NCBI GenBank assembly: GCA_964021785.1
Contig: CAXIAX010000002.1
Span: 4,801-68,800, forward strand
Length of the DNA stretch: 64,000 nucleotides
Source of the DNA: an uncultured Flavobacteriales bacterium
GTDB lineage: Bacteria; Bacteroidota; Bacteroidia; Flavobacteriales_D; CAJJDF01
Reading direction: 5' to 3'
Shown: positions 10,509-15,725 of the stretch, piece after piece
Layout of the letters: each line of letters opens with the position of its first letter
Numbering within the stretch: position 1 is the stretch's first letter
Notes under the pieces: generated by a model
The model's database searches: none
What the model was told of the DNA's origin: nothing
Seen by the model: only the letters and a program-made list of their open reading frames with translations
Made by a program: the position numbers and the translations under genes

Positions 10509-11198
10509 ATGGAATATACCGAAGTAAATAGATTGTCTAGATTAACAGCCATGTTAATTCAATTTCAGACGAAGCGAATTATTACAGCAACTGAATTATC
10601 TCAAAAATTTCAAGTTAGCAAAAGGACAATTTACCGAGATGTAAAAGCATTGGAACAAGCTGGTGTGCCTATTTTGACAGAAGAAGGAAAAGGATATACA
10701 CTAATGGAAGGTTATAAAATACCTCCAGTAATGTTTACCGAAAAACAAGCAAATGCCTTAATTCTTGCAGAACAGTTAGTCTTAAATAGCAAGGATGCTT
10801 CATTCGTAAAAGATTATTCGGAAGCTATTGATAAAATCAAATCAATTTTAAAGTATAGTATAAAAGATAAAGCAAATTTACTTACTGATAGAACGCAATA
10901 TAACGAAGTTAAAAATCAAGTAAAAAACAGTGACAATCTATCCGATTTACAAAACGCACTTACTAATTATAACCTTGTGCGAATAGATTACACAAACAAG
11001 GAAAATACAGTAACAACAAGACTCATAGAGCCTTTTGCCATTATAAATTCAACAAATTGGTATTTAGTAGCTTGGTGTCGTTTGCGTAATGAATTTCGTT
11101 TTTTTAGACCTGATAGAATTCAGAAAATGGAAATTTTATCCGAAAATTTTGAACCTCACAATATGACTTTACAGGAATATTTTGATAAATATCATTAG
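10509..11198 (+). CDS. YafY-type transcriptional regulator (N-terminal HTH plus WYL domain)
   Basis: 229 aa. The N-terminus RLSRLTAMLIQFQTKRIITATELSQKFQVSKRTIYRDVKALEQAGVPI is the DeoR/HTH_11 pattern of YafY/WYL regulators. The C-terminus contains WYLVAWC. Confidence 0.75.
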   Translation: MEYTEVNRLSRLTAMLIQFQTKRIITATELSQKFQVSKRTIYRDVKALEQAGVPILTEEGKGYTLMEGYKIPPVMFTEKQANALILAEQLVLNSKDASFVKDYSEAIDKIKSILKYSIKDKANLLTDRTQYNEVKNQVKNSDNLSDLQNALTNYNLVRIDYTNKENTVTTRLIEPFAIINSTNWYLVAWCRLRNEFRFFRPDRIQKMEILSENFEPHNMTLQEYFDKYH

Positions 11199-12396: not shown

Positions 12397-12506
12397 CCTC
12401 TCCTTCTAATTTTCTTCATTTTCTAACGAATTTCACTACCCATTCGCCAAATTATTCTGTCTTTTTGGGAACTATAATTTAGTGGAAACCTCTATATTCG
12501 TTTTTA
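12397..12506 (+). repeat. Copy 2 of the ~108-bp intergenic element (95 bp perfect core at 12410-12504)
   Basis: Identical to 10324-10418, with a degenerate 13-nt 5' extension (10 of 13 matches). It begins TTCTAAC (12421-12427), ends GTTTTTA (12500-12506) and sits 13 nt upstream of the ATG at 12519. Confidence 0.8.
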
Positions 12507-12518
12507 AATAAAATCACC

Positions 12519-13196
12519 ATGAATAAAACCCTAAAACAAGCTAGTTTTCTTCTTCTATTTTCCTTTGTTTTGTTTGGTTGCAACAGCAATAAAACAAACA
12601 ATAAATTTGAAATGCAACAAGGAGACATATTGTTTCAAAATACAGGGACAGATGAAATAGACAATGCCATAAAAGATGTAACGGCTACTGCCTTGGCAAA
12701 AAACTATTCGCATGTGGGGATTGCCATGCAAAAAGAAGGAAAATGGTTTGTAGTAGAAGCCATACCTAAAAAAGGAATTTGCCAAACTCCTTTACAAAAA
12801 TTCCTAGACAGGCATACAAACAAATTGAACAAATCGCAGACTACTGTAGCCAGACTAGACAGCTATTACCAGCCCTATATTGCTACGGCTATAACTTACG
12901 GACTAGAAAGATTAAATACACCTTATGATGAAGTGTTTTTGTGGGACGATTCTTCTTATTATTGCTCCGAATTAGTGTATAAAATGTTCTCTACTCAAGA
13001 TTTACCCAAAGATTCTATTCCTTTTCTTACTCACCCAATGACTTTTAACGACAGCACAGGAAACCCAATGCCTAGCTGGGAATCGTATTACAAAAAACGC
13101 AATCAGCCAATTCCTGAGGGAATTGAAGGTACAAATCCTAACCTGATGGCGAGCAGTCCGCTTATCACTTTTGTGCACGATTACGAGAACGAATAA
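12519..13196 (+). CDS. YiiX-family permuted papain-like (NlpC/P60 superfamily) lipoprotein
   Basis: 225 aa with a lipoprotein signal (LFGC) and the motifs GDILFQ, SHVGIA and YCSELVY, which are characteristic of YiiX/DUF830-type enzymes. Confidence 0.6.
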   Translation: MNKTLKQASFLLLFSFVLFGCNSNKTNNKFEMQQGDILFQNTGTDEIDNAIKDVTATALAKNYSHVGIAMQKEGKWFVVEAIPKKGICQTPLQKFLDRHTNKLNKSQTTVARLDSYYQPYIATAITYGLERLNTPYDEVFLWDDSSYYCSELVYKMFSTQDLPKDSIPFLTHPMTFNDSTGNPMPSWESYYKKRNQPIPEGIEGTNPNLMASSPLITFVHDYENE

Positions 13197-13380
13197 AAGA
13201 TAATATTACTAATTATTAACTAGTTGTAAACAGTTATTCTTCTTTCTTACTAAGAAAAAACTCCCTCACCTCCCACTACTACTTACAATCCAAAGATTCT
13301 ACTTCTTTTGGACTGAGCAATAACTCATGCCATACTTTTTCATAAAAGAAAAAGTTTATTTTATTTATCTATATTTGTCT

Positions 13381-13466
13381 CATAACAAAACAACTACCTA
13401 TAAAGCTAGTAAACTATATCCCGCGATATAGAGTATACTGTTAACTATATACTGTTGTTCTAAGCC
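13381..13466 (+). repeat. Repeat-dense junction element: CATAAC box, nested palindromes, tandem TATACTGTT repeats and a GTTCTAA box
   Basis: CATAAC at 13381-13386. The palindrome ctatat-cccgcg-atatag spans 13414-13431. The direct repeat tatactgtt occurs at 13434-13442 and 13448-13456, and aactatat at 13412-13419 and 13443-13450. GTTCTAA lies at 13457-13463. Confidence 0.6.
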
Positions 13467-13477
13467 ATTACCTAAAT

Positions 13478-14029
13478 TTGGAAATTGAAAATAAAATATT
13501 ATTAGTATTGGATTTAGACGAAACTCTAATTCATGCAACTGAAAGAAAACTCGAAATTGATTTTGACTTTCAGTATGCTGACTATTTTATTTATCGAAGA
13601 CCACACCTTGAATGGTTTCTGGAGTCTATGAGTGCTGATTTTAAATTAGCTGTTTGGTCCTCTGCTGACGATAAATATGTTGAAGAAATAGTTGAAAGAA
13701 TAAAACCTCCAAGTATTAAGTTTGAATTTGTTTGGGGTAGAACTCGTTGTACAACTAAAAGAGATTATGAACTTGATGAATACGTTCACGAAAAAAGACT
13801 TAAAAAAGTAAAAAAACAAGGGTTTTCAATTGAGCAGATATTGATGGTAGACGATTCTCCTGAAAAGACAAAAGATAATTATGGAAACGCAATTTATGTG
13901 ACAGCTTTTGAGGGAAAACAAAATGATACTGAATTAAAAACTCTTGCGGAATATTTAAACTCAATTAAAAGCACTTCAAATGTGAGAAGTTTTGAGAAAA
14001 GAGGATGGAAAAATAACAAAACGGCTTAG
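13478..14029 (+). CDS. FCP1/NIF (NLI-interacting factor)-like HAD-superfamily phosphatase
   Basis: 183 aa. The catalytic DxDxT motif is near the N-terminus (LVLDLDETLIH), followed by RPHLEWFL...LAVWSS and MVDDSP, matching the CTD-small-phosphatase fold pattern. The only start codon available is TTG. Confidence 0.7.
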   Translation: MEIENKILLVLDLDETLIHATERKLEIDFDFQYADYFIYRRPHLEWFLESMSADFKLAVWSSADDKYVEEIVERIKPPSIKFEFVWGRTRCTTKRDYELDEYVHEKRLKKVKKQGFSIEQILMVDDSPEKTKDNYGNAIYVTAFEGKQNDTELKTLAEYLNSIKSTSNVRSFEKRGWKNNKTA

Positions 14030-14217
14030 AACACTATATATAGCAAATTGGGCGATTAGTGTTTAATCGAAAGGTATGTGTCTATTTGCAAAGTCGCCAA
14101 ATCTTTTGATTTGGTATTAAAGAAAAAAATTAAAACAAAATAAAAAGATTTGGCTTGTGGCTAAACTGAAAGTAATACTTATTTTCTGCCCAACTTGCCA
14201 TATATTTAACGTTATGC
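14023..14217 (+). repeat. Intergenic element A: ~190-nt imperfect hairpin closed by AAC...GTT (attC-like candidate)
   Basis: It starts inside the upstream stop codon (ggcTTAGAAC, 14023-14032). Arm 14036-14052 pairs with arm 14189-14205 (15 of 17 Watson-Crick pairs by my count). AAC 14030-14032 pairs with GTT 14211-14213. It ends GTTATGC (14211-14217). Confidence 0.65.
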
Positions 14218-14237
14218 AAAAATTTATTGCAGCAAAC

Positions 14238-14693
14238 ATGAAAACTTTACCGACAATACTGACAATACTGACAATTTTAATATTTTCATTTTTTTGTAGT
14301 TGTGTTGACAGAAACCCGACTAAAAACCAAGACAATGATGGAACGACTGATTCTATAATTAATTGCTATGAACTGATAGGACAATTACCTAACCTGACAA
14401 TAGAGAACTCAAAATATTATGGCAAAGTCTTTTTGGAAGTTTTTTATGATTCAACTAAGAATTCCTTTGAAAAATATTTAATTGTGAGATCAACAATATG
14501 GAAGAAATCTGACAAATCAGTGTTTAGCCATTATGATTCTGATACAAAAATGTCTGTACCTGAGATTTATACTGAAATTATAAAAGAGATTAAAAACCGA
14601 GTTGACAATTCAGACCTTAAACTGAAACGAAAAGAAAATATTGAAAAATGCGAAGACGTTAATTGGCTCATTTTACCTGTTGAAGTTAAATAA
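14238..14693 (+). CDS. Hypothetical small lipoprotein
   Basis: The track ORF 14157..14693 is trimmed to the in-frame ATG at 14238, which gives MKTLPTILTILTILIFSFFCSC, a lipoprotein signal. The upstream extension lies inside repeat element A. Confidence 0.6.
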   Translation: MKTLPTILTILTILIFSFFCSCVDRNPTKNQDNDGTTDSIINCYELIGQLPNLTIENSKYYGKVFLEVFYDSTKNSFEKYLIVRSTIWKKSDKSVFSHYDSDTKMSVPEIYTEIIKEIKNRVDNSDLKLKRKENIEKCEDVNWLILPVEVK

Positions 14694-14699
14694 AATCTG

Positions 14700-14722
14700 T
14701 GCATAACAAATGATATAGCAAA
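14700..14722 (+). repeat. Truncated copy of the left arm of element A/B
   Basis: tGCATAACaaatgatatagcaaa resembles 14026-14047 (ttagaacactatatatagcaaa). It ends abruptly 4 nt before the ATG at 14727. Confidence 0.5.
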
Positions 14723-14726
14723 CATC

Positions 14727-15476
14727 ATGAAAAAAGCGATTATACTTCTTTTATTTTTCAGTTTAAAGGTGAATGGATTTGGGCAAAAACCAAAACTATT
14801 TATTCATGAGGATGATACCTGTTTTGTTTTACCTGATAGTTTAAAAATGGAAAATTTCTCTTATTTCAACAAACCAAATCAATCTTTTTCTAACGGAATT
14901 TGGATACAAATTATAGACAGTAGTTTTTTCTGTAAGTTCACTTTAAAGAATAACATTTTACACGGAAAATATACCTATTTCCGACCTGAAATTGAAGCTC
15001 AAGGAAACTACACAAATGGAACTAGACAAGGACCATATTTTAGATATAATAAATCAGGTGATATAGTTTACAAGTGTTATTTTGAATCAGGAAACCAATT
15101 AGATTCATACTTTTATTACAACAATAGAAATTTAAAAAAAAGATTTCTTAACACTTCCGATACTACAAGTTTTCATTCATATTATTATTTGAACGGTTTT
15201 AAAAAATCTGAAGGGACATATTTTAACAAATATAATGTTAAAACATCCGAGTTTGACTTTTGGAAAATTGGAAAATGGTCAAATTGGTTTGGTAATGGTG
15301 TGATTAAATCTTCCGGTTATTATAATGACGGCAAAAAGGATTCTGTATGGAAGTATTATAACGAAAAAAGCGAATTTGAAAAATGTGAATATTACAAAAA
15401 AGGAATATTAATTAAATCTTCGTTTACATCAATTATTAATATAGAAGGAAAAGAAATAGGAACACCTGAAAAATAG
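14727..15476 (+). CDS. MORN-repeat-variant protein, YwqK (antitoxin/immunity)-like, with signal peptide
   Basis: 249 aa with repeated G-x-Y/W-x-x-Y/F-x-x-G motifs (HGKYTYFRPE, RQGPYFRYNKSGD, GKWSNWFGNG, KKDSVWKYYNEKSE) typical of the MORN_2/YwqK family. Confidence 0.6.
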   Translation: MKKAIILLLFFSLKVNGFGQKPKLFIHEDDTCFVLPDSLKMENFSYFNKPNQSFSNGIWIQIIDSSFFCKFTLKNNILHGKYTYFRPEIEAQGNYTNGTRQGPYFRYNKSGDIVYKCYFESGNQLDSYFYYNNRNLKKRFLNTSDTTSFHSYYYLNGFKKSEGTYFNKYNVKTSEFDFWKIGKWSNWFGNGVIKSSGYYNDGKKDSVWKYYNEKSEFEKCEYYKKGILIKSSFTSIINIEGKEIGTPEK

Positions 15477-15477
15477 A

Positions 15478-15668
15478 CATTTTCTAACATTATGTATAAA
15501 ACATAGCTGGTAAGTGCTAGTCCGAAAGGTTTATGCCTATTTATAAAGTCCACCAAGTCTTTTTAATTTGGCTTTAGAACGAAAGAGATAAAACAAAATA
15601 AAAAGTTTTGGCTTAGTGCTTAATCGAAAATTAATAACTTTTTAATCACCAACTCTTCTTCTACTAAC
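15478..15668 (+). repeat. Intergenic element B: homologue of element A with a decayed right arm
   Basis: It aligns with element A over ~150 nt and shares the perfect 17-mer taaaacaaaataaaaag (15589-15605 versus 14131-14147). It begins cattttctaac (15478-15488), an 11-mer shared with 10331-10341 and 12417-12427. The right end reads ...ctaacCCT instead of ...ttaacGTT. Confidence 0.65.
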
Positions 15669-15725
15669 CCTCCCGTAAGGCAATTCCTCTAAGTCCGTTC
15701 AATAAAGAATACGCTAGCGCCTTGT

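What the first reader, a model, noticed from the sequence alone, without database searches (positions are those of the whole stretch)
13443..14046. FCP1/NIF-like phosphatase ORF is exactly bracketed by an 11-bp (extended ~21-bp) inverted repeat that includes its stop codon
TGTTCTAAGCC (13456-13466), 12 nt upstream of the TTG start, is the exact reverse complement of GGCTTAGAACA (14023-14033). That second box contains the TAG stop codon at 14027-14029.

The similarity extends outward. ctatatactgt on the left matches the complement of ctatatatag on the right, giving about 18 matches over ~21 positions.

In an integron cassette, the TTxxxx at the 5' boundary is derived from, and complementary to, the inverse core of the cassette's own attC at its 3' end. 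That is the pattern seen here, with GTTCTAA against TTAGAAC.

There are two alternative readings. One is an invertible (phase-variable) segment of ~590 bp. The other is 5'-3' mRNA end pairing.
Basis: seen in the sequence. Interest (0 to 1): 0.6.

Follow-up and report, generated by a model that had tools for sequence, protein, structure and literature searches.

The report
Integron-type gene cassette in a flavobacterium
The short inverted repeat around this phosphatase gene marks the two ends of a mobile, integron-style gene cassette with an unusually long (about 190-base) recombination site, in a bacterial group where integrons are thought to be almost absent.

Summary
The repeat is real: TGTTCTAAGCC at 13456-13466 is the reverse complement of 14023-14033, which holds the stop codon. 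On its own it is at chance level. The window has 74 exact inverted repeats of at least 11 bp at gene-scale spacing, against 65±8 in shuffles.

Comparison with other genomes shows what it is. The same gene lies in four unrelated neighbourhoods. Homology starts exactly at G|TTCTAAGCC (13457/13458) and ends exactly at ...TTTAACG|TT (14211/14212).

The 184 nt after the stop codon belong to a repeat family of about 125-195 nt that follows each ORF in co-oriented arrays. Each copy runs from nnnnAAC to G|TTnnnn, and its stem shows compensatory changes. Each cassette's first bases are the reverse complement of the AAC box of its own downstream repeat.

The window holds a small array of three cassettes with no recombinase. 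In Tenacibaculum and Polaribacter, arrays carrying this repeat family start about 34 nt after a co-oriented Xer-like recombinase. That recombinase lacks the IntI-specific insertion, and the layout resembles Bacteroidales rAID-1.

This is a new variant of a known kind.

The parts
13443..13457 (+). Left junction of the array. It holds an L'-like box (AACTATATACTGTTG) that ends in the crossover G (13457). It is not part of the cassette.
   Evidence: Homology with the other three loci begins only at G13457. The box resembles the family's L' consensus (..CATATAC..ACG|TT). It also resembles the attI-like site TATATAACCAG|TT found after the recombinase gene in other genera. The 261 nt upstream (13197-13457) give no attC profile hit and no long-range stem.
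13458..14211 (+). Cassette A (754 bp): a short 5' leader, the NIF phosphatase ORF and its attC, from TT (13458) to G (14211).
   Evidence: In alignment A1 the inside is 88-97% identical to L001-L003, while the flanks are 38-47%. The same unit is present in Cellulophaga-type loci and in a Tenacibaculum genome.
13457..13466 (+). R' box: GTTCTAAGCC, that is the junction G plus the cassette's own first 9 nt. This is the left arm of the finding's repeat.
   Evidence: It is the exact reverse complement of 14023-14032. The same rule holds for other cassettes.
13478..14029 (+). NIF/FCP1-like HAD phosphatase ORF, 183 aa, TTG start, with a DLDET motif.
   Evidence: Pfam PF03031, E 1.4e-34. NCBIfam dullard-like phosphatase domain, below cutoff. 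There are 1188 homologues. Clusters at 90% identity or more span Cellulophaga, Aquimarina, Cyclobacterium, Allomuricauda and Tenacibaculum.
14023..14213 (+). attC-like recombination site of cassette A (191 nt): R'' - L'' - variable central part - L' - spacer - G|TT.
   Evidence: It is a member of a repeat family found after each ORF in the arrays. As single-stranded DNA it folds with z -3.3 to -3.7 in array form and z -6.0 to -6.4 in circular-junction form. It matches no Rfam family.
14023..14032 (+). R'' box (inverse core): GGCTTAGAAC, containing the TAG stop codon. This is the right arm of the finding's repeat.
   Evidence: AAC is invariant at this position in 21 of 21 aligned family members.
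14036..14053 (+). L'' arm of the long stem (ATATATAGCAAATTGGGC).
   Evidence: It pairs with 14188-14205. In the consensus stem, 9 of 12 pairs show compensatory double changes.
14054..14187 (+). Central variable part. It includes an imperfect hairpin, 14096-14120 against 14130-14154.
   Evidence: The inverted repeat is 25 nt and 88% complementary. This part is shortened or replaced in the 125- and 160-nt size classes of the family.
14188..14205 (+). L' arm (GCCCAACTTGCCATATAT). The spacer TTAAC (14206-14210) follows.
   Evidence: There are two top-strand A.C mismatches, at 14042/14199 and 14047/14194. These are A.C in 19 of 21 and 21 of 21 family members and become G.T wobbles on the bottom strand.
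14211..14213 (+). Crossover GTT, where cassette A ends (G) and cassette B begins (TT).
   Evidence: Homology among the four loci ends here.
14212..14726 (+). Cassette B: ORF 14214-14693 (159 aa, a predicted lipoprotein-like protein with no family match) plus a truncated attC remnant at 14698-14726 (R'' TGTGCATAAC and the start of L'').
   Evidence: The cassette starts GTTATGCA and the remnant R'' is TGCATAAC. The remnant runs straight into the next ATG. No Pfam, NCBIfam or PADLOC hit was found.
14727..15476 (+). ORF of cassette C (249 aa, signal peptide, no family match). The cassette is truncated at its 5' end.
   Evidence: Its attC has the R'' ATTTTCTAAC, but the expected cassette start GTTAGAAAAT is missing between 14212 and 14727.
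15479..15672 (+). Second full-length attC-like repeat. Its 3' end is degenerate (CCCTCCCGTAAGG, with no G|TT).
   Evidence: blastn gives 71% identity over 170 nt, E 5e-21. nhmmer gives E 1e-45 and 8e-43. The sequence is shown.

Best explanation
**What it is.** The two arms of the repeat are the R' and R'' boxes of an integron-type gene cassette. The cassette is the 754-bp unit from TT (13458) to G (14211). It consists of a 20-nt leader, the NIF phosphatase gene, and a 191-nt attC-like site whose first element (GGCTTAGAAC, R'') overlaps the stop codon.

**How it most likely works (inferred).**
- A tyrosine recombinase cuts at G|TT in two such sites and releases the cassette as a circle.
- In the circle, ...TTTAACG joins TTCTAAGCC... 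and rebuilds a complete site.
- In that site R' (GTTCTAAGCC) pairs with R'' (GGCTTAGAAC), and L' pairs with L''. Together they give a long folded stem of 10-14 bp plus 18 bp.
- Re-insertion at another G|TT site linearises the circle at the same point.
- This leaves TTCTAAGCC at the cassette's 5' end and its complement at the start of its own attC. That is the observed repeat.

**State of the window.** It holds a decayed, recombinase-less array of three cassettes: A intact, B with a truncated attC, and C truncated at its 5' end with a degenerate R'.

**What is shown.**
- The boundaries of the mobile unit.
- The repeat family and its covarying stem.
- The rule that each cassette's 5' end matches its own R'' box.
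- The association of such arrays with a co-oriented Xer-like recombinase and a conserved attI-like site in Tenacibaculum and Polaribacter.

**What is inferred.**
- The chemistry of excision and integration.
- That this recombinase family catalyses it.
- That a folded single strand, probably the bottom strand, is the substrate.
For: **Boundaries of the mobile unit.**
- The same gene (88-92% nt identity) sits in four different gene neighbourhoods. Homology begins at G|TTCTAA and ends at AACG|TT. Flanks are 38-47% identical, and the post-ORF element is 95-97% identical, more conserved than the ORF.

**The post-ORF element is a repeat family.**
- L002/L005 has 10 copies, L007 has 12, L006 has 7 and L004 has 3. 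All are on the ORF strand and lie between ORFs.
- The window has 2 full copies plus a remnant.

**Box sequences.** Every copy starts with nnnnAAC and ends with G|TTnnnn, for example GCTAAC/GTTAGC and GCCAAC/GTTGGC. This fits the integron core consensus RYYYAAC/GTTRRRY, which I quote from my own knowledge.

**Own-cassette rule.**
- In 13 of 23 adjacent attC pairs, at least 5 of the 7 bases beyond GTT match the reverse complement of the next attC's R''. Eight of these match 7 of 7.
- Only 9% of non-adjacent pairs reach that level.
- Three of the ten failures were looked at. Two hold shorter or truncated attCs the profile missed that obey the rule themselves: L006 9840-9980 (Imm27) and the window remnant at 14698. 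One holds a partial profile hit (L006 11921-11984). The other seven were not examined.

**Folded structure.**
- The L''/L' stem has 12 consensus pairs, 9 with compensatory double changes.
- The circular-junction site folds at -35 kcal/mol, z -6.0 to -6.4.
- Two positions are invariant A.C on the top strand, which is G.T on the bottom strand.

**Link to a recombinase in other genera.**
- In Tenacibaculum and Polaribacter a conserved site, ..CAATATATTTGATTGnATATAACCAG|TTG.., lies directly after the stop codon of a Xer-like recombinase.
- In 8 loci the 10 nt at that G|TT recur as a perfect reverse complement 0.4-1.7 kb downstream, followed by the L'' signature. Four more loci match at 9 of 10.

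**Horizontal spread.** NIF proteins at 90% identity or more occur in Cellulophaga, Aquimarina, Allomuricauda, Tenacibaculum and Cyclobacterium.

**Loss of the boxes with the attC.** An 80% orthologue with no attC has lost both boxes.
Against: - No recombinase of any kind lies in the 64-kb window. Mobility of this particular copy is therefore not shown, and it may be fixed.
- The 261 nt upstream of the cassette are not a recognisable attC or attI. How the array came to this place is unknown.
- The associated recombinase lacks the insertion that canonical integron integrases use to read folded attC sites. The single-strand mechanism is therefore an analogy, not a demonstration.
- Folding energies of the top and bottom strands are nearly equal.
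- The sites are longer (125-195 nt) than classical attC sites, which are about 57-141 nt by my own recollection.
- No excised circle and no alternative arrangement of this locus was directly observed. The only hint is one metagenomic contig that reads GTTAG instead of GTTCT at the left junction.
Confidence: 0.85

Rival explanations
1. The inverted repeat is a coincidence with no function. An 11-mer happens to recur in reverse complement around a gene in an AT-rich genome.
For: Exact inverted repeats of at least 11 bp at this spacing are as frequent as in shuffled sequence: 74 against 65±8. About 0.3 genes per window are expected to have flanks this complementary.
Against: - Both arms are conserved, with a compensating G/A: C/T change in L001/L002 (GTTCTAAACC / GGTTTAGAAC), in loci with unrelated flanks.
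- The left arm starts exactly where homology between those loci starts.
- The same relation holds for many other cassettes.
Confidence: 0.03
2. The ~590-bp segment between the arms is an invertible, phase-variable element that a site-specific invertase flips.
For: An inverted repeat brackets the ORF, and Bacteroidota are rich in invertons (my own knowledge).
Against: - The gene has the same orientation relative to its leader, its attC and the neighbouring ORFs in all eight places read: window, L004-L007, L034, L036, L037.
- There is no invertase or other recombinase in the window.
- Inverting the segment would separate the gene from its start context without any evident promoter switch.
- The arms are explained by the cassette geometry.
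Confidence: 0.02
3. The ~190-nt element is a non-autonomous transposon (MITE) or a REP/terminator-type intergenic repeat that merely accumulates after genes. The 5' box is unrelated to it.
For: It is a dispersed intergenic repeat with long terminal complementarity. Some copies contain a hairpin followed by a T-run.
Against: - Copies always have the same orientation as the ORFs and lie between them.
- Gene and element move together as one unit with sharp common boundaries.
- Each element's first box matches the start of its own gene unit rather than a target duplication.
- A conserved partner site sits next to a recombinase gene.
- No terminator-like site was found by the scan.
Confidence: 0.04
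4. The repeat serves gene expression. The 5' and 3' ends of the mRNA pair to stabilise or regulate the transcript.
For: If both arms are transcribed they would lie at the two ends of the coding part of the message.
Against: - The orthologue in L036 (80% identity) keeps the gene and the conserved start context but has neither box.
- Both arms vary between different cassettes while always staying complementary within a cassette. This holds whatever gene is carried.
- That pattern points to the recombination site, not to the gene.
Confidence: 0.03

Closest known systems
Integron gene cassettes and attC sites, for example the Vibrio cholerae repeats of sedentary chromosomal integrons
   Same: - The unit is an ORF plus a 3' imperfect-palindrome site.
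- Arrays are co-oriented.
- The boundary is at G|TT.
- The boxes are of the type RYYYAAC ... GTTRRRY.
- The first bases of a cassette are complementary to its own inverse core.
- There are paired L''/L' arms with a variable centre.
- A simple partner site (attI-like) lies next to the recombinase gene.
- Sites within one genome resemble each other, as in large chromosomal integrons.
   Different: - Sites are 125-195 nt with a branched centre.
- Conserved A.C/G.T positions take the place of the classical extrahelical bases.
- The associated recombinase lacks the IntI-specific insertion and carries a ~90-aa N-terminal extension.
- The recombinase gene is co-oriented with the cassettes, and its stop codon lies about 34 nt from the crossover. 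The classical arrangement is divergent.
- The hosts are Flavobacteriaceae. IntegronFinder 2.0 reports almost no integrons in Bacteroidetes (PMC9024848).
CALIN: clusters of attC sites lacking an integron integrase (Cury et al. 2016, PMC4889954)
   Same: The window has two full sites and one remnant, co-oriented ORFs, no recombinase nearby, and signs of decay.
   Different: CALINs are defined with the canonical attC covariance model. Whether that model detects these sites was not testable here.
rAID-1: recombinase-associated acquired interbacterial defence clusters of Bacteroidales (Ross et al., bioRxiv 10.1101/471110; PMC12247911)
   Same: - The host phylum is the same.
- A XerD-like tyrosine recombinase lies at the 5' end.
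- Arrays consist of short co-oriented genes.
- A conserved motif lies after the recombinase stop codon.
- Intergenic sequences are repetitive and described as 'reminiscent of integrons'.
- One array here carries an Imm27-type gene.
   Different: - rAID-1 is defined in gut Bacteroidales by identity to a B. fragilis recombinase, by low GC content and by an immunity-gene content.
- None of the window's three cassette proteins matches an immunity family.
- Identity to the B. fragilis protein could not be measured.
- The two papers read here do not mention attC, hairpins or cassettes, and do not describe crossover points or the own-R'/R'' rule.
Xer/XerA chromosome-dimer resolvases
   Same: These are the best sequence matches of the array-associated recombinase: XerA 5hxy at 158 bits in one full-length stretch, and NCBIfam XerA_Arch at 210 bits.
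   Different: - The match is below the family cutoff (220).
- The recombinase has an extra N-terminal domain.
- It sits next to a cassette array and an attI-like site, not a dif site.
- There are several copies in one genome, Tenacibaculum pelagium.

Membership tests
Integron (complete) | An integron integrase: a tyrosine recombinase carrying the IntI-specific additional domain. | tested here: not met
   - No tyrosine recombinase is present in the window.
- The recombinase next to related arrays scores 179 bits on TIGR02249 (cutoff 265), in two stretches.
- Against VchIntIA (2a3v), 25 residues stand where IntI has 68.
Integron (complete) | An attI site next to the integrase gene, at which the first cassette is inserted. 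| tested here: inconclusive
   - Not present in the window.
- In Tenacibaculum and Polaribacter loci a conserved site ends in CCAG|TT about 34 nt after the recombinase stop codon.
- The first cassette there obeys the R'/R'' rule: 8 loci at 10/10 and 4 at 9/10.
Integron gene cassette | The mobile unit is an ORF plus attC, with boundaries inside the core site at G|TT. | tested here: met
   Homology among four contexts begins at G|TTCTAA and ends at AACG|TT.
Integron gene cassette | R'' (RYYYAAC) and R' (GTTRRRY) boxes are present, and the cassette's 5' end is complementary to its own R''. | tested here: met
   - AAC is invariant and GTT is present in 27 of the 28 full-length sites (the window's 15.5-kb copy lacks it).
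- GTTCTAAGCC pairs with GGCTTAGAAC here.
- 13 of 23 adjacent pairs reach at least 5/7, against 9% of controls.
Integron gene cassette | The attC folds as an imperfect hairpin with paired L''/L' arms and strand-specific irregularities (extrahelical bases). | tested here: inconclusive
   - The stem is supported by covariation in 9 of 12 pairs and by folding z-scores of -6.
- The irregularities are two invariant A.C/G.T positions rather than the classical extrahelical G and T.
- The length of 125-195 nt exceeds the usual range.
Integron gene cassette | Detection by the canonical attC covariance model (IntegronFinder or HattCI). | not testable with these tools
   The model is not in Rfam, and Rfam gave no hit. 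A published IntegronFinder 2.0 run on one Tenacibaculum genome found no integron (PMC10013915), but that genome may lack arrays.
CALIN | At least two attC sites in a cluster with no integrase nearby. | tested here: met
   The sites are at 14023-14213 and 15479-15672, with a remnant at 14698-14726. There is no recombinase in 64 kb. This holds with the family's own profile, not the canonical model.
rAID-1 | A 5' XerD-like recombinase at least 44% identical to B. fragilis BF9343_RS08045. | not testable with these tools
   The reference sequence was not obtainable. Representatives at 34-54% identity carry no organism names. There is no recombinase in the window.
rAID-1 | Two or more co-oriented downstream genes, with repetitive intergenic sequences and a conserved motif after the recombinase stop codon. 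| tested here: met
   This was met in related loci. The window shows the array part only.
rAID-1 | A content of orphan immunity genes. | tested here: inconclusive
   - Imm27 (weak hit) occurs in the Tenacibaculum array.
- The window's cassettes have no immunity-family hit.
- L007 carries TIR/SEFIR and reverse-transcriptase genes instead.
Inverton (phase-variable invertible segment) | Both orientations occur, and an invertase is present. | tested here: not met
   Only one orientation was seen in all eight places read. There is no invertase in the window. Read-level data were not available.

The most novel reading that the evidence does not exclude
Marine Flavobacteriaceae, and probably Bacteroidota more widely including the gut rAID-1 clusters, carry a separate lineage of integron-like gene-capture platforms.

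- In these platforms a Xer/XerA-like recombinase does the work. It has an N-terminal extension and lacks the IntI insertion.
- It recombines long folded attC-type sites at G|TT against a simple site placed directly after its own stop codon.
- Cassettes, such as this phosphatase gene, circulate between genera and even classes.
- Standard integron finders would largely miss such platforms, which would explain the reported near-absence of integrons from this phylum.
Probability: 0.5. Interest if true: 0.75.

Novelty: new variant of a known kind. Interest (0 to 1): 0.62.

Why it matters
**A likely blind spot in integron surveys.**
- Integrons are the best-known bacterial gene-capture systems.
- Surveys report them as nearly absent from Bacteroidetes (PMC9024848).
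- Here the cassette logic is shown base by base in Flavobacteriaceae: crossover at G|TT, own-R'/R'' complementarity, a covarying folded site, and an attI-like partner site.
- Yet the sites are twice the usual length, and the neighbouring recombinase lacks the domain thought essential for reading folded attC sites.

**If the recombinase link is confirmed, three things follow.**
- It would give a mechanistic basis for the integron-like rAID arrays of gut Bacteroidales.
- It would open a large pool of marine cassettes, including defence-type genes, to systematic mining.
- It would allow a direct test of whether attC-type recombination needs the IntI insertion.

**For this window**, it explains why a eukaryote-like phosphatase gene appears at 90% identity or more in several genera.

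Tried and rejected
- **Exact-sequence look-ups that failed.** No record was found for the window's NIF protein or for the MFS protein, so no empty-site comparison for this locus was possible.
- **More attC sites in the window.** The profile search at E≤10 with --max and a crude AAC...GTT stem scan found only the known ones. The stem scan is insensitive: it recovers only part of the known sites in L005-L007.
- **Is 13197-13457 a degenerate attC?** There is no profile hit and no long-range stem. This stays unresolved.
- **Is Peptidase_C92 a cassette?** No R'/R'' partner was seen upstream.
- **Known RNA family, terminator or sigma-70 promoter.** Rfam gave nothing, promoter-like sites are at shuffle level, and no terminators were found.
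- **Function of cassettes B and C.** There are no Pfam, NCBIfam or PADLOC hits.
- **Link to the B. fragilis rAID recombinase.** Close hits are all Flavobacteriaceae, and the 50%-cluster representatives carry no organism names.
- **Literature.** I found no description of Flavobacteriaceae cassette arrays in the held library. Absence from that library does not prove that the system is unpublished.
Full report
**1. Observation**

The sequence is as described.
- TGTTCTAAGCC (13456-13466) is the exact reverse complement of GGCTTAGAACA (14023-14033).
- The TAG stop (14027-14029) lies in the right box.
- The TTG start (13478) follows the left box by 11 nt.
- The ORF is a NIF/FCP1-type HAD phosphatase (PF03031, E 1.4e-34).
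- The outward extension is also there: 19 matches in 22 columns with one gap.

Taken alone, the repeat is not remarkable.
- The window contains 74 exact inverted repeats of at least 11 bp spaced 100-1500 nt.
- Dinucleotide-preserving shuffles give 65±8.
- Scored as complementarity between start flank and stop flank, this ORF ranks first of 55.
- But 0.5% of mismatched flank pairs score as well, so about 0.3 such genes per window are expected by chance.

**2. The same gene in other contexts**

The closest homologues are 91-92% identical. Some are named Cellulophaga baltica by NCBI. They lie in three other loci with entirely different neighbours.

In the four-way alignment:
- Identity is 38-47% in the flanks.
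- It jumps to 95% at G|TTCTAA(G/A)CC (window 13457).
- It stays at 88-92% through the ORF and at 95-97% through the 184 nt after the stop codon.
- It drops again right after ...TATATTTAACG|TT (window 14211-14213).

The mobile unit is therefore 13458-14211. Both ends lie in a GTT, and the non-coding tail is more conserved than the gene.

**3. The tail is a member of a repeat family**

- blastn and profile searches find a second copy in the window. It lies at 15479-15672, after ORF 14727-15476 (E 5e-21 and 1e-45).
- They also find 32 copies in the enlarged loci L004-L007. All are on the ORF strand and lie between ORFs.
- Copies begin with nnnnAAC, for example GCTAAC, GCCAAC, TACAAC and TAGAAC.
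- Copies end with (A/C)CG|TTnnnn, for example GTTAGC, GTTGGC, GTTGTA and GTTCTA. This is the pattern of the integron core sites RYYYAAC and GTTRRRY, which I quote from my own knowledge.
- Shorter size classes (about 125 and 160 nt) share the ends but not the centre.
- The element matches no Rfam family.

**4. The cassette rule**

In an integron array, the bases after G|TT belong to the next cassette and are complementary to that cassette's own inverse core. This holds here.
- In L005 the successive pairs are GTTAGCATTT/AAATGCTAAC, GTTGTAACAC/GTGTTACAAC, GTTGGCAATA/TATTGCCAAC and GTTCTAAACC/GGTTTAGAAC.
- Over all arrays, 13 of 23 adjacent pairs match at 5 or more of the 7 positions beyond GTT, and 8 of them match at 7 of 7. 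Only 9% of non-adjacent pairs reach that level.
- I looked at three of the ten failures. Two contain a shorter or truncated site that the profile missed, and those sites obey the rule themselves. One contains a partial profile hit. The other seven were not examined.

The finding's repeat is thus the R'/R'' pair of the NIF cassette. In L001/L002 both arms carry a compensating change (GTTCTAAACC / GGTTTAGAAC).

It is an L'-like box at the upstream junction (CTATATACTGTTG|TT). That box resembles every L' box of the family, and is therefore complementary to this site's L'' box.

**5. Structure**

- The array-form site folds as single-stranded DNA with z -3.3 to -3.7.
- With the cassette's own 5' end attached, as in an excised circle, it folds at about -35 kcal/mol with z -6.0 to -6.4.
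- That fold has an R stem of 10-14 bp, a small asymmetric loop, an L stem of 18 bp, and a branched centre.
- Across 21 diverse copies the L stem has 12 consensus pairs, 9 with compensatory double changes.
- Two positions in this stem are A opposite C in 19 of 21 and 21 of 21 copies. On the bottom strand these are G.T wobbles.
- That is a strand asymmetry like the one which marks the recombined strand of classical attC sites. However, the computed energies of the two strands are nearly equal, so the active strand is not settled.

**6. The window's array**

- Cassette A (NIF) is intact.
- Cassette B starts G|TTATGCA, with the ATG of a 159-aa ORF at 14214. It ends in a remnant, TGTGCATAACAAATGATATAGCAAACATC (14698-14726). 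This is R'' plus the start of L'', and it is fused directly to the next ATG.
- Cassette C (ORF 14727-15476) lacks its expected 5' end (GTTAGAAAAT). Its attC has lost the final GTT.
- No further sites were found.
- No tyrosine recombinase is present anywhere in the 64 kb. The neighbours are ordinary chromosomal genes.
- Three metagenomic contigs carry the exact upstream Peptidase_C92 gene and end at or near the junction. One reads GTTAG where the window reads GTTCT. This is a weak hint that another cassette sits there in a related population.

**7. The recombinase**

In the Tenacibaculum locus L006/L025 the array begins 34 nt after the stop codon of a co-oriented tyrosine recombinase, which is frameshifted in that genome.

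Its relatives in Tenacibaculum and Polaribacter show the following:
- attC profile hits occur only downstream and on the same strand.
- A conserved site..CAATATATTTGATTGnATATAACCAG|TTG.., lies directly after the stop codon. Beyond it the sequences diverge.
- In 8 loci the 10 nt at that G|TT recur as a perfect reverse complement 0.4-1.7 kb downstream, each time followed by the L'' signature. Four more loci match at 9 of 10.

This is the footprint of insertion at an attI-like site.

The protein is not a canonical integron integrase.
- It scores below cutoff on TIGR02249, at 179 bits against a cutoff of 265, in two pieces.
- It has 25 residues where VchIntIA has its 68-residue region containing the IntI-specific insertion.
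- Its best matches are archaeal XerA.
- It carries a ~90-residue N-terminal extension.
- The family is large: 2783 clusters at 50% identity at E≤1e-30, a count that includes ordinary Xer proteins. The top 150 representatives almost all match along most of their length, and about four in five match from within the N-terminal extension.

**8. Comparison with what is known**

- Functionally and anatomically the unit is an integron-type cassette, and the window's array fits the CALIN concept (PMC4889954).
- As a complete system it fails the defining integrase test.
- Its architecture matches the rAID-1 clusters of Bacteroidales. [quoted passage not shown]
- Membership of rAID-1 could not be tested, because the reference recombinase was not available.
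- The window's cassettes show no immunity domains.
- IntegronFinder 2.0 reports only In0 elements and one complete integron (in Salinibacter) for Bacteroidetes (PMC9024848).
- I found no description of such arrays in Flavobacteriaceae in the held library.

**9. Rivals**

- Chance is excluded by the conserved boundaries and by the general rule.
- An inverton is not supported. Only one orientation is seen in all eight places read, and there is no invertase.
- A MITE or REP-like repeat does not explain three things: the co-mobility of gene and element, the fixed orientation, and the own-box rule.
- mRNA end pairing is unnecessary. An 80% orthologue lacking the attC has lost both boxes but keeps the gene.
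- NIF proteins at 90% identity or more occur in Cellulophaga, Aquimarina, Allomuricauda, Tenacibaculum and Cyclobacterium, as expected for a circulating cassette.

**10. Verdict**

- The instance in the window is a small, decaying, recombinase-less array.
- The system it belongs to is an integron-like platform with long sites and a non-IntI recombinase. I rate it a new variant of a known kind.
- Interest is 0.62.

Noticed in passing
window 14042/14199 and 14047/14194; alignment A3 columns 28/199 and 33/193: Two positions in the long stem of the attC-like site are A opposite C on the top strand in 19 of 21 and 21 of 21 family members. They become G.T wobbles on the bottom strand. This may be a strand-discriminating mark that stands in for the extrahelical bases of classical attC sites.
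   Followed up: partly
window 13473-13480: TAAATTTG overlaps the TTG start codon and matches the Bacteroidetes -7 promoter consensus TAnnTTTG (my own knowledge). The context AAATTTGGAAA is conserved in orthologues of 80-86% identity (L034, L036). It is not resolved whether this is a promoter element or a start-codon context.
   Followed up: no
window 14096-14154: Inside the attC centre, GCCAAAT can pair either with the nearby ATTTGG (a short hairpin) or with the distal ATTTGGC (a long 25-nt imperfect hairpin). These are two mutually exclusive foldings. In several family members the short hairpin is followed by a T-run, like a terminator.
   Followed up: no
L006 5200-5260 and 5556-6678: The array-associated recombinase in this Tenacibaculum genome is a frameshifted pseudogene. 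A fragment resembling a tRNA 3' end lies just upstream on the other strand, but ARAGORN finds no complete tRNA. The platform may therefore sit in, or be, an integrated island.
   Followed up: partly
L008, L010, L011, L028 (Tenacibaculum pelagium S7007): At least four copies of the recombinase gene are present, three at contig ends. The genome therefore has several platforms, or the recombinase end is repeated and breaks the assembly.
   Followed up: no
L007 4371-6299 and 8141-9294; L006 6746-9818: The arrays carry defence-like or conflict-like cargo: a TIR/SEFIR protein, an HTH plus reverse-transcriptase pair, NOV_C, DUF5677 and an Imm27-like gene. This recalls both the 'biobank of defence systems' view of chromosomal integrons and the rAID arrays.
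   Followed up: no
L031-L033 against window 12475-13461: Three metagenomic contigs from different runs carry the exact Peptidase_C92 gene. All start at the same base (window 12475) and end at or near the cassette junction. The C92 unit may itself be bounded by variable sequence.
   Followed up: partly
L004 9930-9985 and L034 8700-8740: Two other junctions end in ..TTATACAATTG|TT, preceded in L004 by a duplicated palindrome TGAACATATGTTCA. This may be a second type of attI-like or attC end in Cellulophaga and Aquimarina.
   Followed up: no
window 10509-11198: A WYL-domain transcriptional regulator with an HTH_11 domain lies 2.3 kb upstream of the array. It has the same orientation as the alpha/beta hydrolase and Peptidase_C92 genes that precede the cassettes. 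No link to the array was established.
   Followed up: no
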